Shown here in pieces: positions 204-34,603 of a stretch of DNA of 34,603 nucleotides. Positions within the stretch are counted from its first letter, which is position 1; each line of letters starts with the position of its first letter. Source of the DNA: Minisyncoccota bacterium (lineage in GTDB: Bacteria; Patescibacteriota; Minisyncoccia; UBA6257; MFKM01); the NCBI GenBank assembly GCA_036169835.1, contig JAVHOD010000052.1, positions 1-34,603 on the forward strand, read 5' to 3'. The translations under genes and the position numbers were made by a program. The notes under the pieces were generated by a model that did no database searches, had not been told where the DNA came from, and saw only the letters and a list, made by a program, of their open reading frames with translations.

Positions 204-390
204 CTTGCCCAGTTAACTCAACTCCGAATAAGTAAAAATTTATTGAGATAAATTTTTACTTGAATTGTGCTCCGCTAATCTCTTTCTATTATATTATTGG
301 TATGATCTACATAATATTCTCTATTTCTTTGAACTTAACAATATAAGTAAAGTATAGAAGAATATCATCGGAGTTGAGTTACTGGGCTTG
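204..390. repeat. Inverted-repeat-bounded intergenic element, copy 1 (179 bp core 208-386, flanked by CTTG/CTTG)
   Basis: cccagttaactcaactccga (208-227) is the near-perfect complement of tcggagttgagttactggg (368-386). CTTG lies at 204-207 and again at 387-390. An internal 13-bp hairpin spans 230-261. Confidence 0.75.
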
Positions 391-4711: not shown

Positions 4712-4956
4712 TATGCCCAGTAACTCAACTCCGATGGTATTCTTCTGTGATAATGCGTTGTAGGATAAAAAGATGAAGTTTATTTTATTGGTTATATCTA
4801 AAGAACCTAACAAAACAAACAGAAGAATACATCGGGACAAAAATCATTAAACCAAGATATATGAAAAATAAAAAACAAAACAAGTTAGTCGAATTAATAT
4901 CAATCAACTCCAAGATGAGAGATTTTTGTCTTTCGGAGTTGAGTTAACTGGGTATG
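4712..4956. repeat. Inverted-repeat-bounded intergenic element, copy 3 (237 bp core 4716-4952, flanked by TATG/TATG)
   Basis: cccagtaactcaactccga (4716-4734) pairs with tcggagttgagttaactggg (4933-4952). TATG lies at 4712-4715 and at 4953-4956; the latter contains the ftsZ ATG. A nested 17-bp stem pairs 4731-4748 with 4819-4835. Confidence 0.8.
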
Positions 4957-7088: not shown

Positions 7089-7817
7089 TTAAAGATTTCT
7101 TAACTCGGTAGGCAGATATTTATTGCATTTTTTTTGAATGGTTTCTAACTGCTTTTGTCCGAAGGGTTTGTATTTTTTATATTTCGGGTTGATTGTCTTT
7201 TCGGGTTTGAATTGCTGAAGAAAATATTTTTTAGCGCCTTTTAATTGTTTGGCTATATCTACAATATCTTTTAGTTGGTGTAGTTTCGGTATGATTGTGG
7301 TTCTGAATTCATAATTAATTCCGGATTTTTTGATTATCTCAATGCTTTTTTTAATTTTTTCTAAATTAACTTTCGTCCCCGCCACTTCGTCATATTTTGA
7401 AAATTGGGAATTGGAAATTGGAAATTGCGCCAAAGGCGCCTTTATGTCCATAGCCACATAATCTATGAGTTTTTCATCAATTAAGTTTTTTAACATTTCG
7501 GGATTTGAGCCGTTGGTGTCAAGCTTCACCGCATATCCAAGTTTTTTTATTTTTTTTATAAAATCCGGTAGGTTTTTATTTATGGTAGGTTCTCCGCCGC
7601 AGATTGCCACGCCATCCAATAGTCCTTTTCTTTGTTTTAAAAAATCAAAAAAATCTTTTTCGGAAATTTTAGCGTGTTTGTTAATATCTTCGGCTAAAAC
7701 CAATTCGGGATTATAGCACCAGGGACAGGAAAAATTACAGCCAACTAAAAAAACCGTGGCCGCGATTTTGCCCGGATAATCAATAAGGGTAAGTTTTTGG
7801 AGACCGCCTATCAGCAC
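7089..7817 (-). CDS. nrdG: Anaerobic ribonucleoside-triphosphate reductase activating protein (radical SAM)
   Basis: 242 aa with the CNFSCPWCYN radical-SAM cluster motif and GGEPT. It follows nrdD with a 1-nt gap. Confidence 0.85.
   Translation of the reverse strand: MLIGGLQKLTLIDYPGKIAATVFLVGCNFSCPWCYNPELVLAEDINKHAKISEKDFFDFLKQRKGLLDGVAICGGEPTINKNLPDFIKKIKKLGYAVKLDTNGSNPEMLKNLIDEKLIDYVAMDIKAPLAQFPISNSQFSKYDEVAGTKVNLEKIKKSIEIIKKSGINYEFRTTIIPKLHQLKDIVDIAKQLKGAKKYFLQQFKPEKTINPKYKKYKPFGQKQLETIQKKCNKYLPTELRNL
7399..7439. repeat. Heptamer tandem repeat plus GC hairpin inside the nrdG CDS
   Basis: On the coding strand, aatttcc aatttcc aattccc aatttt encodes QFPISNSQFS. It is preceded by the hairpin gcgcc-aaa-ggcgc (7427-7439), which encodes APLA. 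Confidence 0.7.
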
Positions 7818-10206: not shown

Positions 10207-10656
10207 ATGGCTAATCTTTTACAAGAAAGAATTTTAGAAAAGGAAGAAATTGAAGAATTTATTCCTCATCGGGGAAAGTGGTTGCTTTTGGATAAAGTTA
10301 CGGAAATCCAGGAAAAATCCATTGTCGCCATAAAAACATTTACCGCGGAAGAATGCGAAGGGCATTTTGGGATAGTCCCCGGACATTTAATTTGTGAAGC
10401 TTTAGCTCAAGCCGGCGCCGTTTTGGTTGGTTACCGTTGTGCTTCTTCTGGAAATAAAAAAATTCCGCTTTTAAGGCATGTTACTGACGCAAAATTTATT
10501 TCTGTGGTGAGACCCGGTGAACGAGTGACGCTTGAAGTGGAATTAATAAATTCAAAAGAGGATGTTTTCTTGTTAAGAGGGATGGCCTTGATCAGCCTGA
10601 AAAAAGTTGTCAGCTGGGAAGGAACGGGCTTTGCTACGGATGAATTGAAATTTTAA
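10207..10656 (+). CDS. FabZ/FabA-like hotdog-fold dehydratase family protein
   Basis: 149 aa with motifs IPHRGKWLLLD and HFGIVPGHLICEALAQ. A strong SD aaggaggtg lies at 10193-10201. Confidence 0.7.
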   Translation: MANLLQERILEKEEIEEFIPHRGKWLLLDKVTEIQEKSIVAIKTFTAEECEGHFGIVPGHLICEALAQAGAVLVGYRCASSGNKKIPLLRHVTDAKFISVVRPGERVTLEVELINSKEDVFLLRGMALISLKKVVSWEGTGFATDELKF

Positions 10657-10662
10657 GATTTT

Positions 10663-10696
10663 GCCCTCCGACATTTTGTCAGAGGGCTTTTTATTT
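10663..10696 (+). terminator. Rho-independent terminator after the hotdog gene
   Basis: gccctccgaca-tttt-gtcagagggc followed by tttttatttt. Confidence 0.8.
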
Positions 10697-10700
10697 TATC

Positions 10701-10729
10701 TTGACGTTTTGATGCTTCAATTTTATTAT
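10701..10729 (+). promoter_or_regulatory. Sigma-70-like promoter for iorAB (TTGACG - 17 nt - TATTAT)
   Basis: -35 TTGACG at 10701-10706 and -10 TATTAT at 10724-10729, with a 17-nt spacer. It lies 22 nt upstream of the iorA ATG. Confidence 0.55.
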
Positions 10730-10751
10730 GCTTTAATAAAAGAACAGTCAT

Positions 10752-12437
10752 ATGCAAAGCGAAATTCTAAAAAATAAAGGCGATAAAGTCGTTTTACTTG
10801 GGAACGAAGGAATTATCCGGGGCGCTTTAGAGGCGGGGGTTCAATTTATTTCTTCTTATCCGGGCACGCCGGCTTCGGAAATCGGCAATATTTTTTATCA
10901 GTTTTTTAAGTCAAAGAAATTACCCAAGGATGTTTATTTTGAGTTTTCCGTAAACGAAAAGATAGCCATGGAGGCGGCGGCTGGGGCATCTTTTTGCGGT
11001 TTGCGGAGTTTGGTGGCGATGAAAAATTTCGGCCTTAATGTCGCTTCTGATTTTCTGTACCCCTTGGTTTATTCCGGGGTTAAAGGGGGTATGGTTATTG
11101 TGGTGGCGGACGACCCTTCCTGCTGGAGTTCGGCTCAATCGGAAGATAACAGCCGGGGCCACGTTATCAAGGCGCATATTCCCACTCTGGAACCGTCAAC
11201 GCCGCAAGAATGCAAGGATTTTACAAAACTGGCTTTTGAGTTTTCGGAAAAATTCGAAATTCCGGTAATGATTCGGGAAACGACCCGGGTGGCTCTTCAG
11301 GCCGGGCTGGTCAAGCTTGATGAAATAAAAGAGGGGAAGAGGAAGGCCAAATTTATAAAAAATCCGCGCCAGTTCGTAACTATGCCCCCCCGGGTTTTGG
11401 AAATGCACCGGGAACTTTTAGAGAAGATTGAAAAAATTAGAGAATTTTCCGAGAAGTCAGAAATTAACAGAATTGTCCCGCTAGGCGGGATCCCGCTAAG
11501 CGGGAAAAATTGTCAGGTGGGCATCATCGCTTCCGGAGTTTGTTATTTATACGCCAAAGAAGCACTTCGGGAATTGAATATTAAATTGCCTGTTTTGAAA
11601 TTAGGATTTTTCTATCCGTTGCCGGATGAAATGATTAAAAATTTCATCAAGAATTTGGATGAAGTTTTGATAATTGAAGAATTGGAGCCATATCTGGAAA
11701 AAGAAATAGAAAGATTAGCCAAAGACGCCAACCCTAAATTGAAAATCAACGGCAAAAATCTTTTGCCTGAAGTCGGGGAAATAAAACCCGAATATGTGAT
11801 TTTGGCTGTTTCAAAGCTTAGCGGAGCGAAGGCCGCTTTTTCTCTTGAAAAGCACCGGAAAGAATTTAAAAATATAAAAGCGCCGGAAAGAAATCCCCGA
11901 TTTTGCCCGGGTTGTCCCTATAATTTCGTTTATTCGGTAATCAAAAAAATAGCTCCAAAGAATGCCATCTTCGGAGGCGAGATCGGCTGTTATATGCTGG
12001 CCCACTATCCGCCCCATGAAATGCAGGATTATCTTTATTGCATGGGTTCGGATATTTCAATAGCTCACGGGATCAAAAAAGCCATTAAGCAATCGGGAGG
12101 CGATGAATTCAACCAGAAAATTATCGCTTTTGTCGGCGACTCTTCTTTTTTTCACGCCAGCATTCCTCCGTTGCTTAACGCCGTTTTCAATAAATCCAAT
12201 CCTTTAATAGTCATTTTGGAGAATAAAACTACGGCCATGACCGGCCATCAGCCGCACCCCGGCATTAAGGGAGATATTAAAATCGAGGAAATCGTTAAGG
12301 CCTGCGGCGTAAAAAATGTGAAAACAGTCGACCCGGTTAAAGTGAGGGAATTCGAGAGCGTCATCAAAGATTTTCTGAAGAAAAAAGAAATCTCGGTGAT
12401 TATCGCCAAACATCCCTGTTTATTCGTAGAAAATTAA
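10752..12437 (+). CDS. iorA: Indolepyruvate/2-oxoacid:ferredoxin oxidoreductase, alpha subunit
   Basis: 561 aa. It has LLGNEGIIRGALEAGV..SSYPGTPASEI at the N-terminus and the TPP-binding region GDSSFFH. It ends at KHPCLFVEN, with no visible C-terminal CxxCxxCxxxCP ferredoxin-type domain. Confidence 0.8.
   Translation: MQSEILKNKGDKVVLLGNEGIIRGALEAGVQFISSYPGTPASEIGNIFYQFFKSKKLPKDVYFEFSVNEKIAMEAAAGASFCGLRSLVAMKNFGLNVASDFLYPLVYSGVKGGMVIVVADDPSCWSSAQSEDNSRGHVIKAHIPTLEPSTPQECKDFTKLAFEFSEKFEIPVMIRETTRVALQAGLVKLDEIKEGKRKAKFIKNPRQFVTMPPRVLEMHRELLEKIEKIREFSEKSEINRIVPLGGIPLSGKNCQVGIIASGVCYLYAKEALRELNIKLPVLKLGFFYPLPDEMIKNFIKNLDEVLIIEELEPYLEKEIERLAKDANPKLKINGKNLLPEVGEIKPEYVILAVSKLSGAKAAFSLEKHRKEFKNIKAPERNPRFCPGCPYNFVYSVIKKIAPKNAIFGGEIGCYMLAHYPPHEMQDYLYCMGSDISIAHGIKKAIKQSGGDEFNQKIIAFVGDSSFFHASIPPLLNAVFNKSNPLIVILENKTTAMTGHQPHPGIKGDIKIEEIVKACGVKNVKTVDPVKVREFESVIKDFLKKKEISVIIAKHPCLFVEN
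11477..11504. repeat. Tandem double hairpin centred on GGGATCCC inside the iorA CDS
   Basis: cccgc-tag-gcggg AT cccgc-taa-gcggg, encoding PLGGIPLSG in-frame. Confidence 0.75.
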
Positions 12438-13039: not shown

Positions 13040-13118
13040 GATAGACTCTAATTACTCGTCGCCGTCCACAAGTAAATCAAATTTGTCCGAGAAAATATCC
13101 CGCGCCCCCCTGCCTAAA

Positions 13119-13263
13119 ACAAGGAAAGGAATTTCCTTGAAGCGAGGCTCGAGGAGCGAGCGGGCATGGTTTTCCGACGAAGTCGGAAAGAGCGAGCGAC
13201 GAAAGCCAGCGAGCGAGCACGCTGGGCGAGCGAGCGGTAGCAAAGGGAAATTCCTTTCCTTGT
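13119..13263. repeat. 18-bp perfect inverted repeat enclosing a GC-rich 109-nt core with reiterated GAGCGAGCG
   Basis: acaaggaaaggaatttcc (13119-13136) is the exact complement of ggaaattcctttccttgt (13246-13263). GAGCGAGCG occurs at 13154-13162, 13190-13198 and 13228-13236, and GAGCGAGC at 13211-13218. A central hairpin ttccgac-gaa-gtcggaa lies at about 13171-13187. Confidence 0.8.
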
Positions 13264-14445: not shown

Positions 14446-16338
14446 TTATTTTTGGAGCGTTTGAGTGAAGACGCGCATTATTGAGCCTGATAAAGATTCC
14501 GGATTAATAGAACCGCTGGGCGGAGGAGTGGTATTTTCGGTTGGCGGCGGAGTTTGAGTTGGCGGGGGAGGAGTATTACCTGTTGGCGGTTGCTGATTTG
14601 CCGGCGGCATCATTCCCTCCGGCGGATTTGTCATTCCCTGCTGGGGTTGTTGAGGTTGTTGTCCTTGTGGTGGCATATTTTGTTGAGTCGGCGGCTGTTG
14701 GTTGCCGGTTGGCGGCTGCTGTTGTGTTCGCATTTGTCCTTGTTGTCTAGGCTGTCCGGGTTGATTAAGTTGACCGGGCTGATTTGGTTGACTTGGTTGA
14801 AAATTTTTACATTCCTCAGGATTAGAAGTGCAGTATTTTTGGCATTCTTCCGGCCCCTTGCAACCGCCTGGACCAGCCTGCTGTGGCATTTGTTGGCCGC
14901 CTGGATTTACAGTCCCTGATCCAGGTTGAAAATTTTTACATTCCTCAGGGGTTTTACACCCGCCCAGCTCTCCTTGTCCGCCAGCCGACATCATACCTCT
15001 GGCGTTTGATCCGCCTTGGTCTTGAGACCCGCTTTGCCCCTGGCCTTGGGTTCCGCCCTGGCCTTGTTGATTTTGTTGATTTGACTGACCAGGTTGATCT
15101 TGGCCTTGCTGATTTTGACCCGGCCTTCTTTCTTGCGTTCCAAATTTTTGAAAACACTGATTGATAGAATCACCAGATTGTCGCCCAATCACAGATCCAG
15201 TTTTCATTTTTTCAACAACATCAGCGCCTAAAGAAGACGATATACAATCCAAAACTTCAGGCGGTATTGAAGAAAAAGAGTCTTTCATTTTTTGCTGGCC
15301 CTCTTCCATCCTTTTTAGATCAGCCTCGGGAATCATTCCATTTTCTTTGCCAAACTGAAAACAAGTTTCTTGATTGTCGGGATTATTGCAAAAAGTATCG
15401 CATTCGTCTTTGTTTTTACAGCCGCCCGGCCCCTTGCCTCCGGTCTTACGAACCATAACCGCGTCTTCTTTGCTCATAAACCCGGCCGCTTCAGCGAAGC
15501 TGGTGCATTCTTCAAAATGAGCGTCTTGCGAGCAATAAGTATTGCATTCCTCTTTGCCTTTACAGGCCGGCGGTTTTATCCCTTGTTTTATAGCCGCCAG
15601 CATTTTTTGGGAGTCGGCTTTTTCTTGTTCGTTCATAAAACCGGCTTCAATGGCGAAATTTGTACAAACTTCCATATTATTAGGTTCGCCGCAGTATTGG
15701 TCGCACGCTTCTTTGCCTTTACAGGGCGGCGGTTTCACGCCTCTTTTTAGAGCCGCCAGCATTTTTTGAGAATCTTCAAGTTCTTTGCCCTGGATAAAAC
15801 CCGCTTCCACGCCGAAAGCCACGCATTTCTCCATATTATTCGGGTCCTCGCAATAAGAATCGCATTCTTTTTTATTTTTACAGGGCGGCGGTTTCACGCC
15901 TCTGGCGATGGCCGCTTGAACTTGTTTGGCTTCCGCCAAATCTTTCGCCGACATTAAATTATTTTTTTCCGCGAAAGAAACGCAATCATTGATGTTGTTG
16001 ATATCGTCGCAATATGTTTCGCAGGCGTCTTTGCCGGCGCAGCCGCCGGGCCCCTTGCTCCCTGACGCCACGAAATTTTTGGCCGTATTGACTTCATCTT
16101 TCGACATCAGGTTGTTTTTTTCGGCGAAATTAAGACAAGCAGTGTTATTGTCCGATTTGTCGCAATAGGTCTTGCAGGATGCCGCGTCTTGGCAATTGCC
16201 AAGCTCCTTTACCGGATATTGGAGATTTGCCGCGCCGGCTGTTTCTTGAGCCAAAGCCACTTTATTAAATAAACCAACCGAGCCGATTATTGCTATCGCG
16301 GAGATGATAATAAAACTTATGAGATATTTTGTTTTCAT
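14446..16338 (-). CDS. Secreted cysteine-repeat protein with a Q/P/G-rich C-terminal half
   Basis: The start is placed at ATG 16338 (MKTKYLISFIIISAIAIIGSVG..., a signal/anchor). It has six about 45-aa modules with C-x5-C-x3-C-x9-C spacing followed by F(A/G)(E/I/V).. helices, plus two partial modules, then long Q/P/G/N low-complexity sequence. Confidence 0.8.
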   Translation of the reverse strand: MKTKYLISFIIISAIAIIGSVGLFNKVALAQETAGAANLQYPVKELGNCQDAASCKTYCDKSDNNTACLNFAEKNNLMSKDEVNTAKNFVASGSKGPGGCAGKDACETYCDDINNINDCVSFAEKNNLMSAKDLAEAKQVQAAIARGVKPPPCKNKKECDSYCEDPNNMEKCVAFGVEAGFIQGKELEDSQKMLAALKRGVKPPPCKGKEACDQYCGEPNNMEVCTNFAIEAGFMNEQEKADSQKMLAAIKQGIKPPACKGKEECNTYCSQDAHFEECTSFAEAAGFMSKEDAVMVRKTGGKGPGGCKNKDECDTFCNNPDNQETCFQFGKENGMIPEADLKRMEEGQQKMKDSFSSIPPEVLDCISSSLGADVVEKMKTGSVIGRQSGDSINQCFQKFGTQERRPGQNQQGQDQPGQSNQQNQQGQGGTQGQGQSGSQDQGGSNARGMMSAGGQGELGGCKTPEECKNFQPGSGTVNPGGQQMPQQAGPGGCKGPEECQKYCTSNPEECKNFQPSQPNQPGQLNQPGQPRQQGQMRTQQQPPTGNQQPPTQQNMPPQGQQPQQPQQGMTNPPEGMMPPANQQPPTGNTPPPPTQTPPPTENTTPPPSGSINPESLSGSIMRVFTQTLQK

Positions 16339-16339
16339 A

Positions 16340-16639
16340 TTATTCAAAAGGATTAGTTTTAACATTTTTAAAGGGGTTAGCTTTGTCGGCCGGATTGACG
16401 TCGGGTTTGCTTTCTAGGGGGTTTGCCCCTACCGAGGGCAGGACGCCTTTGGTGGCGCTTTCGGTTATAGCTCCCGCCGCTTCGCTGGCATTTTCCAATG
16501 CTTGGGTAAAGGCCTGGGACTCGGTTGACTTAGGCGTTGTTTTGGACTTTTTCCAATTACTCCAGTAGAAATAACCGCCGACTCCCAGCCCAATTAATAA
16601 AACGACCGCTATTATTAATAAAAGAGTTTTTTTATTCAT
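16340..16639 (-). CDS. Small membrane-anchored hypothetical protein
   Basis: 99 aa with an N-terminal TM helix (LLLIIAVVLLIGLGVGGYFYW). Its stop lies 1 nt upstream of the Cys-repeat gene start. Confidence 0.6.
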   Translation of the reverse strand: MNKKTLLLIIAVVLLIGLGVGGYFYWSNWKKSKTTPKSTESQAFTQALENASEAAGAITESATKGVLPSVGANPLESKPDVNPADKANPFKNVKTNPFE

Positions 16640-24703: not shown

Positions 24704-24846
24704 GCCAATGTGATTAAAATTTTCAATTACCAATTCTCAATTTTCAATCAATGACTAAATTTTCAATTTCCAAACGTTTGAAAATCAGTTCATTGAAAAT
24801 TTATTAGAAATTAGAAATTGGAAATTAGAAATTCAGACCAAGCCCT
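24704..24846. repeat. AT-rich repeat-laden imperfect palindrome between the adaptor and ATPase genes
   Basis: There are three direct aattttcaat copies on the left. The centre is the palindrome caaacgtttg. On the right are cattgaaaat and four (a/g)gaaatt units (tagaaattagaaattggaaattagaaatt). Confidence 0.7.
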
Positions 24847-27563: not shown

Positions 27564-28157
27564 TTAAGGTTTAATAAAAAGTTTTTTGAGCTGGATAACC
27601 GCGCGCCGGTGCCAACTTTTCACCGTGTTAATGGGTTTTCCCAAAGATTCGGCAATTTCTTCAAAAGTGAGTTGATTGTCGTGATGAAGTTTCAACACTT
27701 GCCGGTAATTTAAAGACAATTGTTCTATTTTTGAATTCAGAGTTTTGATACTGCTGGCGCGTTCGCAAACTTCGGCGGGAAGAGGAGAGGGGTCAATTAG
27801 TTTTTCAGCAAGAAAATTTTTTCCATCTGCGTTTTCTCCGCCAAAGGCGGATCCGCCGTAGGCGGAAAAATCTGAAAACGGCAGGGTTTTTTTCTTCCTG
27901 ATGAAATCAATAGCGGCATTTTTGGCGATGGCAAAAATCCAGGTTTTGAAATTTTTTGTCCGGTCGAATTTCTTGAGGTTGCGCCAGGTTTTGACAAAAA
28001 CTTCTTGGGTTATTTCCTCCGCGTCCTGTTTGTTTCTGACATATTGCCAGACGAAATTATGAATCGGTCTAAGATATTTTTTGACTAAAATCTCAAGAGA
28101 TTTTTTATCCCCTTTAAGATATTGCTTTATGAGTTTTTGGTCATTTTTTTCCGGCAT
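27564..28157 (-). CDS. ECF-type RNA polymerase sigma-70 family factor
   Basis: 197 aa. Region 2 reads EEITQEVFVKTWRNLKKF...WIFAIAKNAAIDFIRKK. The region 4 HTH reads LTFEEIAESLGKPINTVKSWHRRA. Confidence 0.85.
   Translation of the reverse strand: MPEKNDQKLIKQYLKGDKKSLEILVKKYLRPIHNFVWQYVRNKQDAEEITQEVFVKTWRNLKKFDRTKNFKTWIFAIAKNAAIDFIRKKKTLPFSDFSAYGGSAFGGENADGKNFLAEKLIDPSPLPAEVCERASSIKTLNSKIEQLSLNYRQVLKLHHDNQLTFEEIAESLGKPINTVKSWHRRAVIQLKKLFIKP
27838..27865. repeat. Tandem double hairpin centred on GGATCC inside the sigma-factor CDS
   Basis: ccgcc-aaa-ggcgg AT ccgcc-gta-ggcgg. On the coding strand it encodes (S)AYGG(S)AFGG in the region 2-region 4 linker. Confidence 0.75.
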
Positions 28158-28204: not shown

Positions 28205-28654
28205 TTATTTCCCCAAAAAGCGAAAGGTCATTTTATCTCCAATTTTTAAGCCGATTTTTTCCGCCGCGCCTCCGTTAATTTCCAAAACATATTTTGCGTT
28301 TTTATTGGGGATTATATAAAGACAAGGGGATTCTTCCGGGCAGGGCGGGGTGTTCTGGCTGATAAAGACCGCTTCTTTATTTTCGTTAATCCATATTATA
28401 TCCAGAGGGATTAAAGTATTTTTCATCCAAAAGGCATAATCTCCTTCTTTCTTAAAAACAAAAAGCATTCCTTTATTTGAATCCAGATTTTTTCTAAACA
28501 TCAACCCGCGGCTTTTTTCTTCGGCGGTTTTAGCCAGTTCAACATTAAAACAATGATTTTGAAAACAGACCCGGTCCAGTTTTCCCTTTGTTAAAATCGT
28601 CGTAGCTACCGCCACAATTGCCAAGAAAATAAGCAATAAAATTTTTATTTTCAT
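28205..28654 (-). CDS. DUF192 family protein
   Basis: The start is placed at ATG 28654 (MKIKILLLIFLAIVAVA, a signal/anchor). GLMFRKNL....GMLFVF and PLDIIWI are typical of DUF192. Confidence 0.7.
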   Translation of the reverse strand: MKIKILLLIFLAIVAVATTILTKGKLDRVCFQNHCFNVELAKTAEEKSRGLMFRKNLDSNKGMLFVFKKEGDYAFWMKNTLIPLDIIWINENKEAVFISQNTPPCPEESPCLYIIPNKNAKYVLEINGGAAEKIGLKIGDKMTFRFLGK

Positions 28655-28662
28655 ATCGTATT

Positions 28663-28692
28663 CTCTGCCAAGAAAAAACCCGAGTTTCTGGC
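28663..28692 (-). terminator. Rho-independent terminator after the hemerythrin gene
   Basis: The minus strand reads aaaaacccgg-gccagaaact-cgggtttttt. Confidence 0.65.
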
Positions 28693-28710
28693 CCGGGTTT
28701 TTATTTTGAT

Positions 28711-29127
28711 TTATTTTAATCCCTGTTCGTGGAAATATTTCGTGTATTTCCGATCCACTTCCAAAATGTGGCCGATCAGCCAATTGCCGGAATAAAAAGC
28801 GATTTTTTGAGCAAATTCGGAAGTGTCCACTCCTTCGCTCCGGATTTCGTCAAGATATTTTTTTATCGTTTCCCGGTATTGATTATGGGCGGCAATGTGG
28901 TCAACGGCGCTCGGATAATGGAATTTGTCAAAATATTTTTCTTCGGTGCCGAAATGATAAAAGGCGTAATCGCCGAGTTTTTCCAGAACCGCGAAAACCT
29001 CTTCTTTAGCCGGGGTTTTTTGAGTTAAATCAAGAACGCTATTTGCTATTTCAAAAAAATGCCGATGTTGTTCGTCGATCTTTTGGATCCCGACGCTATA
29101 CTTATTTTCCCAGATAATTTTTTCCAT
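28711..29127 (-). CDS. Hemerythrin-like (bacteriohemerythrin) protein
   Basis: 138 aa with IDEQHRHFFE, HFGTEEKYF, HIAAHNQY and NWLIGHILEVD His/Glu/Asp ligand motifs. Confidence 0.85.
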   Translation of the reverse strand: MEKIIWENKYSVGIQKIDEQHRHFFEIANSVLDLTQKTPAKEEVFAVLEKLGDYAFYHFGTEEKYFDKFHYPSAVDHIAAHNQYRETIKKYLDEIRSEGVDTSEFAQKIAFYSGNWLIGHILEVDRKYTKYFHEQGLK

Positions 29128-29253
29128 TTTTAAATTATATCATAAATACGTTGGTCTGTTGAAAATTGAAACCGGAGAATACCTTATTATATGACTTTTT
29201 GATATAATTATTAAAAGGTCAAATGATAAATTAATAAAATTAAATATAAATTC

Positions 29254-33499: not shown

Positions 33500-33566
33500 T
33501 CCCGATGGCGAAGTCCCGACGAAGTCGCGGATTCGCGATATAGTCGGAACCATCGTGGATCCTCGA
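33500..33566. repeat. GC-rich compound palindromic element (intergenic copy A)
   Basis: The sequence is tcccgatggc gaagtcccgacgaagtcgcggattcgcgat atagtcggaa ccatcgtggatcctcga. tcgcggattcgcgat pairs with atcgtggatcctcga (14 of 15 positions including wobbles). It shares its ends with copy B at 34528-34570. Confidence 0.75.
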
Positions 33567-33571
33567 TAAAT

Positions 33572-34603
33572 TTAATTCTTAAATTTATCGGGACAGCTTT
33601 TTCCGGCAATATAGCCGGTGCTCCAGCACATTTGCAGATTAAAGCCGCCGGTTTTTCCGTCAACATCAATAATTTCGCCCGCGAAAAACAGGTTATCAAT
33701 TATTTTTGATTGCATTGTTTTATGATCTATCTCCTTGAGAGATATTCCTCCGCTTGTAATTTTAGCTTCATCAAAACCCAAAATACTTTCTGCGGTAACT
33801 TCAAGATTTTTGAAAGTTTTTACTATTATTTTTTTCTCCGGGTTTGACAAGTTATTTGTCATTTTATTTTTATTTACGCCCGCGATGTTTAGTAAAACCT
33901 CGGCTAATTTTTCGGGCACGAAATCCGATAATGTGTTTTTAATATTTTTTTTCGGATATCTCTTGGAAGTTTCTTCGAGTTTTTTCCCAAGCTCTTCTTG
34001 GGTTAGCGACGGAAAAAAATCAAGGCCTATTTTTACGCCGTCTTTTTCCAACAGTTCTCTCACTTTGCCGCTGATGTTTAATACAGCCGGCCCGCTTATG
34101 CCAAAATGAGTAAACAGAATTTCTCCTTCTTCTGGAAATTGCTTTTTATTATCTTTTAAGATATTTATCTTAACGTCTTTTAAGCTTATTCCCTGTAGAT
34201 TTTTAACCCATTCTTCTTTCAATCTTATCGGAGACAAAGCGGGCATCGGTTTTATGATGGTATGCCCTAATTTTTCGGCCAATTTATAGCCCGAACCGTC
34301 AGAACCGGTTAAATGATAAGATTTCCCGCCGGTACAAAATATATATTTTTCAGCTGTAATTTCTCCGTTTTTTAAAATAAGCTTGGTGATTTTTTTATCT
34401 ACATGGCGAACAGACGCAACTTCAGAATTGAAAAGTATGTGCACTTTATTTTTTGCCAAATATTTATTTAACGCTTCCAAAACTTTTTCCGAGTCATCGC
34501 TTTTCGGGAAAACTCTTTTGCCGCTTTTCCCGATGGCTTTGCCATCGTGGATCCTCGACTCCGTCGGGACAATTTTAGTTTTTACTCCCAGTTTTTCAAA
34601 AAA
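33572..34603 (-). CDS. HI0933/aminoacetone-oxidase-family NAD(P)/FAD-dependent flavoprotein, C-terminal about 340 aa (5' end outside window)
   Basis: The frame is open from 34603 (FFEKLGVKTK...GKRVFPKSDDSEKVLEALNKYL...) to the stop at 33572. FFAGEIIDVDGKTGGFNLQMCWSTGYIAG is the typical family C-terminus. The ORF-track entry starts at an internal TTG. Confidence 0.85.
   Translation of the reverse strand, partial: FFEKLGVKTKIVPTESRIHDGKAIGKSGKRVFPKSDDSEKVLEALNKYLAKNKVHILFNSEVASVRHVDKKITKLILKNGEITAEKYIFCTGGKSYHLTGSDGSGYKLAEKLGHTIIKPMPALSPIRLKEEWVKNLQGISLKDVKINILKDNKKQFPEEGEILFTHFGISGPAVLNISGKVRELLEKDGVKIGLDFFPSLTQEELGKKLEETSKRYPKKNIKNTLSDFVPEKLAEVLLNIAGVNKNKMTNNLSNPEKKIIVKTFKNLEVTAESILGFDEAKITSGGISLKEIDHKTMQSKIIDNLFFAGEIIDVDGKTGGFNLQMCWSTGYIAGKSCPDKFKN
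34528..34570. repeat. GC-rich palindromic element copy B, in-frame inside the flavoprotein CDS
   Basis: tcccgatggc-tttg-ccatcgtggatcctcga-ctccgtcgggac. On the coding strand it encodes IVPTESRIHDGKAIG between KTK and KSGKRVFP. Confidence 0.7.

What the first reader, a model, noticed from the sequence alone, without database searches (positions are those of the whole stretch)
34528..34570. Copy of the palindromic element inserted in-frame in the HI0933-type flavoprotein gene
- **Coding.** The coding strand reads gtcccgac-gga-gtcgaggatccacgatgg-caaa-gccatcggga and encodes IVPTESRIHDGKAIG.
- **Location in the protein.** This lies between FFEKLGVKTK and KSGKRVFPKSDDS. In family members I recall, the corresponding stretch (…G+..k.e..GR+FP.S…) has only a few residues, so about 13-15 aa appear inserted.
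- **Match to copy A.** On the plus strand the DNA shares tcccgatggc and ccatcgtggatcctcga with intergenic copy A (33500-33566). Its gtcccgacggagtcgaggatccacga arm matches 22 of 26 positions of gtcccgacgaagtcgcggattcgcga in copy A, in opposite orientation.
- **Interpretation.** This is the clearest case in the window of a spacer-type palindromic repeat residing in-frame in a gene, analogous to Rickettsia RPEs.
Basis: partly seen in the sequence, partly recalled or inferred. Interest (0 to 1): 0.65.

Follow-up and report, generated by a model that had tools for sequence, protein, structure and literature searches.

The report
Mobile double-hairpin repeat inside a gene
A 42-base GC-rich repeat made of two small hairpins has inserted in frame into a loop of a flavoprotein gene in a Patescibacteria-type genome. 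It belongs to a widespread family of tiny palindromic elements, for which I found no published description, that sit inside many housekeeping genes of these bacteria, much as RPE elements do in Rickettsia.

Summary
Window 34528-34569 is a 42-nt GC-rich element of two adjacent hairpins (coding strand TCCCGAC-GGA-GTCGAGGA | TCCACGATGGC-AAA-GCCATCGGGA). It lies in frame in an HI0933-type flavoprotein gene.

- **Insertion.** Almost all of the 120 closest homologues, two crystal-structure relatives and the syntenic nearest relative lack it. That relative shows an empty site with identical upstream flank.
- **Effect on the protein.** It splits a conserved Glu codon, adds 14 residues and is modelled as a low-confidence extension of a beta-hairpin. 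The gene is under purifying selection (dN/dS 0.19).
- **Copy A.** It is not simply intergenic. It is a 94-nt composite of the same hairpin units inserted in the gene's last codons, giving a new C-terminus and stop codon.
- **Family.** A metagenome scan gave 62 distinct copies in low-GC contigs. Twenty-two lie in frame in unrelated housekeeping genes (UvrA, FtsZ, PheT, RsmH, MiaA and others), read in five frames. Another lies in ribosomal protein L24. Stems covary, 55 of 62 lengths are multiples of three, and there is no target duplication.

Best reading: a non-autonomous REP/MITE-like mobile double hairpin that behaves like Rickettsia RPEs but is a distinct, apparently undescribed family. The mobiliser and translation are untested.

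The parts
34528..34569 (-). 42-nt double-hairpin element inserted in frame. With the split Glu codon it encodes VPTESRIHDGKAIG(K).
   Evidence: Sequence read. Empty site in L002/L003. Nearly all of 120 homologues lack it. Coordinates.
34552..34569 (-). Hairpin unit 1: TCCCGAC-GGA-GTCGAGGA (7-bp stem, 3-nt loop, one bulged A).
   Evidence: DNA minimum-free-energy fold. Unit search.
34528..34551 (-). Hairpin unit 2: TCCACGATGGC-AAA-GCCATCGGGA (10-bp stem, 3-nt loop, one bulged A). It joins unit 1 at GGA|TCC.
   Evidence: DNA fold. Covariation in the upper stem across 21 copies.
33572..34603 (-). HI0933-like NAD(P)/FAD-dependent oxidoreductase gene: 343 codons plus stop. The N-terminal ~89 codons lie beyond the window end.
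   Evidence: Pfam PF03486 (165 bits) and PF22780 (139 bits). Homologues. dN/dS 0.19 against L002.
33500..33593 (-). It replaces the ancestral C-terminus ...GKSRE* with ...GKSCPDKFKN*.
   Evidence: Alignment with L002/L003 shows one clean 94-nt gap. Length confirmed. Fold z-score -5.4.
33560..33593 (-). Unit of the composite: TCCCGATAAATTTAA-GAA-TTAAATTTATCGAGGA. It supplies codons CPDKFKN and the stop codon (33572-33574).
   Evidence: The same AT-stem variant occurs in Staskawiczbacteria locus L093.
33500..33559 (-). Outer hairpin unit (TCCACGATGG...CCATCGGGA on the coding strand). Its loop holds two nested units, 33532-33549 and 33514-33531.
11476..11505 (+). Related 30-nt double hairpin TCCCGCTAGGCGGGA|TCCCGCTAAGCGGGA, in frame (VPLGGIPLSG) in an indolepyruvate ferredoxin oxidoreductase alpha-like gene.
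   Evidence: Homologues show a variable linker here, so the insertion is not cleanly resolved.
27837..27866 (-). Related 30-nt double hairpin TCCGCCTACGGCGGA|TCCGCCTTTGGCGGA (coding strand), in frame (SAYGGSAFGG) in a sigma-factor-like ORF.
   Evidence: Not compared with homologues.

Best explanation
The segment is one copy of a short, GC-rich, non-autonomous mobile repeat. It is built from modular hairpin units of the form TCC(N)CGA - stem - 3-nt loop - stem - TCG(N)GGA, joined head to tail at GGA|TCC.

**Shown.**
- After the window's lineage split from its nearest sequenced relative, a two-unit (42-nt) copy landed between the G and the AA of a conserved Glu codon of the HI0933-type flavoprotein gene.
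- A four-unit (94-nt) composite landed in the last codons of the same gene.
- Neither insertion made a target-site duplication.
- The 42-nt copy is a multiple of three and has no stop codon in the gene's frame, so the reading frame runs through it.

**Modelled.** The 14 extra residues are predicted as a flexible extension of a beta-hairpin in the FAD-binding domain.

**Inferred.**
- The extra residues are translated. The 94-nt copy shifts the frame but costs only the last two residues and supplies a new tail and stop codon.
- The conserved entity is the DNA or RNA hairpin, not the peptide.
- Spread most likely works by the logic of REP/BIME or IS200/IS605-type elements. A trans-acting enzyme would recognise the hairpins on single-stranded DNA and insert them without duplication.
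- Selection then keeps only copies in intergenic DNA, at gene ends or in tolerant surface loops.
For: **It is an insertion.**
- The syntenic relative L002/L003 has empty sites at both places. The 33-34 nt upstream of the loop insert are identical and a clean 42-nt gap follows. At the gene end there is a clean 94-nt gap in flanks that are about 95% identical.
- In the alignment of 120 homologues only P0109 shares the insert.
- PDB relatives 2i0z and 4cnj are gapped there.

**It is a repeat family.**
- The exact 17-mer occurs twice in the window against 0.02 expected.
- The hairpin-unit pattern gives 12 matches in the window against 1.0 in shuffles.
- A metagenome scan gave 73 loci and 62 distinct copies.
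- Named hosts are Patescibacteria, Saccharibacteria and Staskawiczbacteria.

**The structure is conserved.**
- The DNA minimum-free-energy fold is two hairpins, z-score -3.7 to -5.4.
- In 21 copies of 42 nt, the stem positions left free by the search pattern are 99.4% paired.
- They show 14 double-sided changes, and 0 of 500 shuffles reached this.

**It is tolerated in genes.**
- 22 of 62 copies lie inside long ORFs.
- Pfam assigns most of those scanned to helicase, UvrA, FtsZ, ComEC, PheT, Mur ligase, GalT, RsmH, MiaA, TrmD and other families. Ribosomal protein L24 carries a further copy.
- Five of the six frame and orientation combinations are used, and 56 of 62 copies have at least four open frames.
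- 55 of 62 lengths are multiples of three.

**The gene is functional and the site is a loop.**
- dN/dS is 0.19, against 0.17 and 0.13 for the two neighbouring genes.
- AlphaFold models put the insert at pLDDT below 50 between two strands.
- The P0109 model matches 2i0z with TM 0.86-0.90.
Against: - No mobilising enzyme was identified, so the transposition mechanism is inferred only from the absence of a duplication and from the hairpin ends.
- Translation of the insert is not shown.
- Sequence next to both junctions differs from L002 more than the surrounding DNA does: 5 of 8 nt after the loop insert and 3 of about 10 nt at the gene end. A clean cut-and-paste does not predict this.
- The same element sits at the very same codon in an orthologue only 56% identical (P0109). 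This needs either target preference or a strong selective filter, and is unexplained.
- Copies share descent, so the shuffle and binomial figures overstate independence.
- Solvent exposure of the loop was not computed, because no model coordinates were available.
Confidence: 0.8

Rival explanations
1. The element spreads by recombination or repair rather than by a transposase. Hairpin-forming GC-rich DNA would be copied into breaks by template switching, or by ectopic gene conversion from other copies. Units would be added or nested by the same route.
For: - No target duplication was found, and no transposase.
- Substitutions cluster right next to both junctions, as error-prone repair would leave.
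- Structures are modular, nested and variable in unit number.
- The flanks show only a weak consensus.
Against: - Copies in different genes and samples are almost identical even at unpaired loop and bulge positions (window against L168: 41 of 42). This points to copying of a defined unit with fixed ends (TCCCGA...TCGGGA).
- The ends are the same in both empty-site comparisons.
Confidence: 0.15
2. The insert is not part of the mature protein. The hairpins would be excised from the mRNA or bypassed by the ribosome, as with the byp elements of Magnusiomyces mitochondria or T4 gene 60 (comparison from my own knowledge).
For: - The hairpins are stable inside coding sequence.
- The same family also occurs in a 23S rRNA expansion.
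Against: - Coding copies are multiples of three and free of stops in the host frame. Removal or bypass would not require this.
- The 94-nt copy provides the stop codon actually used.
- No known removal machinery applies.
Confidence: 0.04
3. The 14 residues are a selected functional module, for example an interaction loop, and not a selfish repeat.
For: - The same peptide sits at the same site in two distant orthologues.
- It is read in the same frame in ribosomal protein L24.
Against: - The same DNA is read in five frame and orientation combinations, giving unrelated peptides.
- Many copies are intergenic.
- Covariation preserves base pairing, not codons.
- The models show no ordered structure.
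Confidence: 0.04
4. The segment is ancestral and was lost in other lineages, or it is an assembly artefact.
For: None beyond the shared site in P0109.
Against: - Nearly all homologues and the PDB relatives lack it.
- The segment matches a repeat found in unrelated genes.
- The P0109 allele was assembled independently from two samples, L001 and L165.
- The window's gene keeps its reading frame across the element.
Confidence: 0.02

Closest known systems
Rickettsia palindromic elements (RPE)
   Same: - Dispersed palindromic repeats found in intergenic DNA, in RNA genes and in frame inside many unrelated housekeeping genes.
- Insertion sites are compatible with the protein fold.
- No encoded transposase.

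The RPE features are taken from PMC10969869.
   Different: - RPEs are about 150 bp and each family encodes a conserved peptide (PMC10969869). This element is 30-94 nt, built of 15-24-nt hairpin units, and is read in five frames.
- The host phylum is different.
- Sequence relationship was not tested, because no RPE library was available.
REP / BIME elements of Proteobacteria, with their RAYT transposases
   Same: - Imperfect palindromes of 20-40 nt that form stem-loops.
- They combine into mosaics of several units.
- No target duplication.
- The stem is conserved through compensatory change.
   Different: - REPs are extragenic and most carry a GTAG or CGTC head (PMC3733652). Here the ends are (G)TCCCGA...TCGGGA(C).
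- About a third of copies are inside ORFs.
- No RAYT was looked for or found.
Bacterial MITEs (Correia, ERIC, Nezha, Chunjie and others)
   Same: - Small non-autonomous repeats with terminal inverted repeats.
- They occasionally fuse in frame with host ORFs (PMC10969869).
   Different: - MITEs normally make target-site duplications and are larger. Here there is no duplication in two empty-site comparisons and the length is 30-94 nt.
- No parent IS is known.
Mitochondrial GC clusters, double-hairpin elements and repetitive hairpin-forming elements
   Same: - GC-rich hairpin or double-hairpin modules scattered through an AT-rich genome and described as mobile (abstracts of PMC4478555 and PMC2800124).
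- From my own knowledge, some lie in frame in protein genes and in rRNA expansions.
- Here the element is 62% GC, by my own count from the sequence, in a window that is 42% GC.
   Different: - Those elements are in organelle genomes of fungi and sponges.
- There is no sequence relationship.
- A bacterial, phylum-wide counterpart was not found in the literature searched.

Membership tests
Rickettsia palindromic elements (RPE) | Dispersed palindromic repeat with many copies | tested here: met
   Two loci plus two related ones in the window. 62 distinct copies in metagenomes.
Rickettsia palindromic elements (RPE) | In-frame insertion in unrelated protein-coding genes | tested here: met
Rickettsia palindromic elements (RPE) | Length of about 150 bp, a family-specific conserved peptide, and a Rickettsia host (PMC10969869) | tested here: not met
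   The element is 42 nt, or 30-94 nt across the family. It is read in five frames. Hosts are Patescibacteria.
Rickettsia palindromic elements (RPE) | Sequence similarity to the RPE consensus sequences | not testable with these tools
   No RPE sequence library was available. Rfam gave no match.
REP / BIME | Short imperfect palindrome forming a stem-loop, arranged in mosaics | tested here: met
REP / BIME | GTAG or CGTC tetranucleotide at one end (PMC3733652) | tested here: not met
   The ends are (G)TCCCGA and TCGGGA(C) in 53 copies.
REP / BIME | Extragenic location | tested here: not met
   22 of 62 copies lie inside long ORFs.
REP / BIME | Cognate RAYT (TnpA-REP) gene in the genome | not tested
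   Only 34.6 kb of the genome is available, and no profile scan of whole genomes was possible.
MITE | Terminal inverted repeats and no coding capacity of its own | tested here: met
   TCCCGA...TCGGGA ends.
MITE | Target-site duplication | tested here: not met
   None at either empty-site comparison with L002.
MITE | Parent insertion sequence with the same ends | not tested
   No candidate was seen. Genes next to 5'-end copies are UvrA, SmpB and ABC genes, not transposases.
HI0933-like flavoprotein (host gene) | Pfam PF03486 Rossmann domain plus PF22780 barrel/H2TH domain above the curated cut-offs | tested here: met
   165.1 bits (cut-off 50) and 138.9 bits (cut-off 27). The model of orthologue P0109 matches 2i0z with TM 0.86-0.90.

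The most novel reading that the evidence does not exclude
Patescibacteria (CPR) genomes carry a phylum-wide family of frame-neutral hairpin modules. Their unit lengths are 15, 18 or 24 nt, they are stop-free in most frames, and they have GGATCC junctions. These modules would move without target duplication by an undescribed hairpin-directed mechanism, possibly on single-stranded DNA and possibly with a preference for ATWG^AAA. They would be a major unrecognised source of loop insertions, of new N- and C-termini, and of start and stop codons in essential genes of these reduced genomes.
Probability: 0.35. Interest if true: 0.8.

Novelty: new variant of a known kind. Interest (0 to 1): 0.65.

Why it matters
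- **A second large bacterial case.** In-frame palindromic repeats are a textbook oddity of Rickettsia. This case is in a different, very large and poorly understood radiation, and involves a much smaller modular element.
- **Annotation and protein-family work on CPR genomes.**
  - Short G/P/S/R-rich 'insertions' would be repeat-derived rather than lineage-specific adaptations.
  - Some gene starts and stops would be supplied by repeats.
  - Stop-bearing variants may split gene calls.
- **A concrete test system.** A defined 42-nt element with known ends and empty sites can be used to ask how such elements move and how much loop variation they feed into essential proteins of minimal genomes.

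Tried and rejected
1. **Genome-collection scan.** The 16-base pattern was too short for 596 Gb. Most of the 120 loci were chance matches in GC-rich genomes, and only six loci (L031, L036, L044, L091, L093, L114) carried real copies.
2. **The window's own contig.** A look-up through the neighbouring PIF1 helicase protein found nothing on record, so the 5' end of the gene and a genome-wide copy count could not be obtained.
3. **Rfam.** Only chance-level matches at E-values of 1-7 around the gene, all far below their gathering scores.
4. **IMG/VR viral contigs.** No copy, so there is no sign of a phage vector.
5. **Transposase next to 5'-end copies.** The adjacent genes are UvrA, SmpB, ABC and SHMT-type genes, judged by reading the printed N-terminal sequences.
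6. **The 30-nt element in the IorA-like gene.** Testing it as an insertion was inconclusive, because homologues have a length-variable linker there.
7. **Patch transfer between the window and P0109.** Rejected, because the flanks differ at synonymous sites while the element is 37 of 42 identical.
8. **Long target duplications.** Flanking direct repeats in some intergenic copies looked like long duplications, but they are AT-rich simple repeats in which the hairpins are embedded.
9. **Literature.** Searches for a description in CPR or Patescibacteria found nothing relevant.

Full report
**What is at the coordinates**

The gene on the minus strand from 33572 to the window end is an HI0933-like NAD(P)/FAD oxidoreductase. 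It shows 343 intact codons plus a stop, and its N-terminus lies beyond the window. Pfam PF03486 scores 165 bits and PF22780 scores 139 bits.

The coding strand across 34570-34528 reads G TCCCGAC GGA GTCGAGGA TCCACGATGGC AAA GCCATCGGGA.

As single-stranded DNA the segment folds into two adjacent hairpins. Stems are 7 and 10 bp, loops are 3 nt, and each hairpin has one bulged base. The free energy is -13.2 kcal/mol, z-score -3.7.

**Is the match to copy A more than chance?**

- CCATCGTGGATCCTCGA occurs exactly twice in the window, against 0.02 expected.
- TCCCGATGGC is exact at both places.
- The inverted arm match is 27 nt at 85% (pair I16).
- A pattern for the hairpin unit, T[CT]C(N)CGA ... 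TCG(N)G[GA]A, gives 12 matches in the window against 1.0 in shuffles. Eight of them lie at these two loci.

**Is it an insertion?**

In a MAFFT alignment of the 120 best database homologues (56-78% identical) only P0109 has this segment. Two others carry a different insert (NPSTGSGQA or NPSASSGQA) in the same loop. The rest read KTKI-E-xG-KRVFP. PDB relatives 2i0z and 4cnj are gapped there.

The nearest relative (P0001; L002 from GCA_030693325.1, and L003) is syntenic, with the order ABC, HI0933, PIF1, RRM, radical SAM. At nucleotide level it has an empty site. The 33-34 nt upstream are identical, the window then has 42 extra nt, and identity resumes.

If the ancestral codon was GAA, the insert lies uniquely between G and AA: ATT G[TCCCGAC...CATCGGGA]AA AGC. 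This explains why the near-invariant Glu is replaced by Val at one end and Lys at the other. There is no target-site duplication.

**Copy A re-read**

Alignment with L002/L003 shows a single clean 94-nt gap, at window 33500-33593. The flanks are about 95% identical.

- The insert begins TCCCGA and ends TCGGGA, like the 42-nt copy.
- It lies inside the gene's last codons.
- L002 ends ...GKSRE*. The window ends ...GKSCPDKFKN*, with the new tail and stop codon supplied by the element.
- It contains one AT-stemmed unit (33560-33593). It also contains one unit homologous to hairpin 2 of the 42-nt copy, whose loop holds two further nested units (33514-33531 and 33532-33549).

So both copies are insertions in the same gene, and copy A is not merely intergenic.

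**Is the host gene alive?**

Against L002 the gene has dN 0.087, dS 0.470 and dN/dS 0.19. This is similar to the neighbouring PIF1 (0.17) and radical SAM (0.13) genes.

All four indels between the two orthologues are insertions:

- Two are in the window.
- Two are in L002, encoding G/P/A/S-rich GNPPSPKATAGR and GLPAGQA. I inspected the DNA of only the first of these.

**Where the insert sits in the protein**

| Model | Overall quality | Insert residues | Position |
|---|---|---|---|
| Full-length P0109, which has the same insert | pLDDT 88.3, pTM 0.84; matches 2i0z with TM 0.86-0.90 | 106-117 at pLDDT below 50, no secondary structure | between strands 99-103 and 119-123 |
| The window's own 343-residue fragment | mean pLDDT 81.0 | 16-27 at pLDDT below 50 | between strands 9-13 and 29-33 |

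In the second model the new C-terminal tail is also low in confidence. This fits a tolerated extension of a beta-hairpin. Solvent exposure was not computed.

**The family**

A metagenome scan with TCCCGACNNAGTCGNGGATCCNCGAT found 73 loci, all in contigs of 31-47% GC. With the other loci held this gives 62 distinct copies. In the species-representative genomes, real copies were seen only in records named Patescibacteria, Saccharibacteria, Staskawiczbacteria or 'uncultured bacterium'. That scan was otherwise swamped by chance hits.

Twenty-two copies lie inside long ORFs with at least 25 codons on each side. Pfam assigns those I scanned to these families:

- UvrD/AddA-type helicase
- UvrA
- FtsZ
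- ComEC
- PheT, B5 domain
- a Mur ligase
- GalT
- RsmH
- MiaA
- TrmD
- HhH-GPD glycosylase
- an ATP-grasp enzyme
- the POR gamma subunit
- LigT
- DUF763
- an R3H protein

One scanned ORF, L127, had no match. Another copy lies in a gene I read as ribosomal protein L24. That element is 41 of 42 identical to the window's and is read in the same frame.

Further properties of the family:

- **Frames.** Five of the six frame and orientation combinations are used, giving peptides such as VPTKSRILDGKAIG, SRQSRGSSMASSSG and SRWQSHRGSSTESG. Fifty-six of 62 copies have at least four open frames.
- **Lengths.** Fifty-five of 62 are multiples of three, mostly 36 or 42 nt. This includes 34 of the 40 copies not classed as coding. 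Copies share descent, so these are not independent trials.
- **Stems.** In the 21 copies of 42 nt, the three upper-stem pairs not fixed by the search pattern are kept through GC, UA, CG and AU exchanges. Overall 99.4% of cells are paired, with 14 double-sided changes, and 0 of 500 shuffles reached this.

The constraint therefore acts on the hairpin and not on the peptide.

**How it most likely works**

Shown:

- It is a dispersed repeat with fixed ends.
- It is gained since the split from a close relative.
- It makes no target duplication.
- Its stems covary.
- It sits in genes only in frame-compatible form or at gene ends.

Inferred:

- It is a non-autonomous element moved in trans.
- The hairpin ends and the lack of a duplication point to REP/RAYT or IS200/IS605-like handling of single-stranded DNA.
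- Selection filters insertions down to loops and termini.

A repair or gene-conversion route is the main rival. Both junctions show clustered substitutions relative to L002, which a clean transposition does not predict.

**Unexplained**

The window and P0109 are only 56% identical, and their flanks differ at synonymous sites. Yet both carry the element at the same codon and in the same orientation.

The L24 copy has a similar flank. The three flanks are AAAATTG^AAAAAGG (L24), AAAATTG^AAAGCGG (window) and AAAATAG^AAAACGG (P0109). This hints at a preferred site, but rests on three events. Across 53 copies the flanks show only G at -1 and CA at +1 and +2, which extend the terminal palindrome.

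**Comparison with what is known**

- **RPEs.** The element behaves like them, with in-frame insertion in many unrelated genes (PMC10969869). It is about a third of their length, modular, read in several frames, and in another phylum.
- **REP/BIME elements.** It resembles them in size, mosaic build and lack of duplication. It lacks the GTAG or CGTC head (PMC3733652) and is often intragenic.
- **MITEs.** It fails the target-duplication criterion.
- **Mitochondrial GC clusters and hairpin elements.** These are the nearest architectural analogues (PMC4478555, PMC2800124).

Four literature searches found no description of such elements in CPR or Patescibacteria. The library does not hold all journals, so absence is not proof.

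**Verdict**

One correction applies to copy A, and the RPE link is an analogy rather than membership. I rate it a new variant of a known kind, with interest 0.65.

Noticed in passing
window 11476-11505: A 30-nt double hairpin TCCCGCTAGGCGGGA|TCCCGCTAAGCGGGA with the same GGATCC junction. It lies in frame (VPLGGIPLSG) in an IorA-like gene. Homologues have a length-variable linker there, so an insertion could not be called cleanly.
   Followed up: partly
window 27837-27866: A 30-nt double hairpin (coding strand TCCGCCTACGGCGGA|TCCGCCTTTGGCGGA). It lies in frame (SAYGGSAFGG) in a sigma-factor-like ORF at 27564-28157.
   Followed up: no
window 13100-13260: A GC-rich intergenic element of about 150 nt between convergent genes. 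It is bounded by the inverted repeats CAAGGAAAGGAATTTCC / GGAAATTCCTTTCCTTG. It carries GAGCGAGCG repeats and a TTTCCGACGAAGTCGGAAA hairpin that resembles hairpin unit 1.
   Followed up: no
window 208-387 and 4715-4952: Two MITE-like units, each bounded by 19-20-nt inverted repeats GCCCAGT(T)AACTCAACTCCG around an AT-rich core. They flank a gene block of about 4.3 kb (pairs I1 and I3).
   Followed up: no
window 14446-16365: An ORF of 639 aa holds imperfect tandem repeats with a 159-nt period (families D1, D2, D5).
   Followed up: no
window 7386-7435 and 24718-24842: AT-rich AATTGGAAATTGG-type simple repeats occur in direct and inverted orientation about 17 kb apart (families D20 and I2). Similar AT-rich repeats flank many intergenic copies of the hairpin element in metagenome loci.
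   Followed up: no
L135, L146, L153, L167, L169 (metagenome loci): An 'ATA-loop' subfamily (GTCCCGACATAGTCGTGGATCC...) sits at the 5' ends of genes. An ATG on its reverse strand appears to serve as the start codon, so the proteins would begin MSGQ (MSGK in L167). By reading their N-terminal sequences, the genes are UvrA (twice), SmpB, an ABC ATPase and one other.
   Followed up: partly
L163 38-75: A copy of the element lies within the span matched by the 5' domain of 23S rRNA. There, 604 nt cover 418 model positions, which indicates an rRNA expansion.
   Followed up: partly
HI0933 homologues P0001-P0120, L002 around 10400-10800: The family alignment shows about 20 further sites with lineage-specific inserts of 6-20 aa, many of them rich in G, P, S, A and R. 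Examples are PPSPKATAGR, GSPVGLRPR, SAQGGPASGW and GLPAGQA. L002 itself has two that the window lacks. Several GC-rich element families therefore seem to pepper this gene.
   Followed up: partly
proteins P0121-P0167: Most database homologues of the window's IorA-like protein are annotated as partial or are only 146-349 aa, even on long contigs. Gene calls may be broken by stop-bearing repeat variants.
   Followed up: no
window 28232-29185 against L002 15567-16898: The PALP-domain gene present in the syntenic relative L002 is absent from the window's otherwise collinear block.
   Followed up: no
L027, L034, L061 (Dehalococcoidia): Analogous multi-hairpin repeats (TCGAGGATGCTCGAC...GTCGGCACTCGAC...) turned up among the genome-scan hits. 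This suggests related hairpin-module repeats outside Patescibacteria.
   Followed up: no
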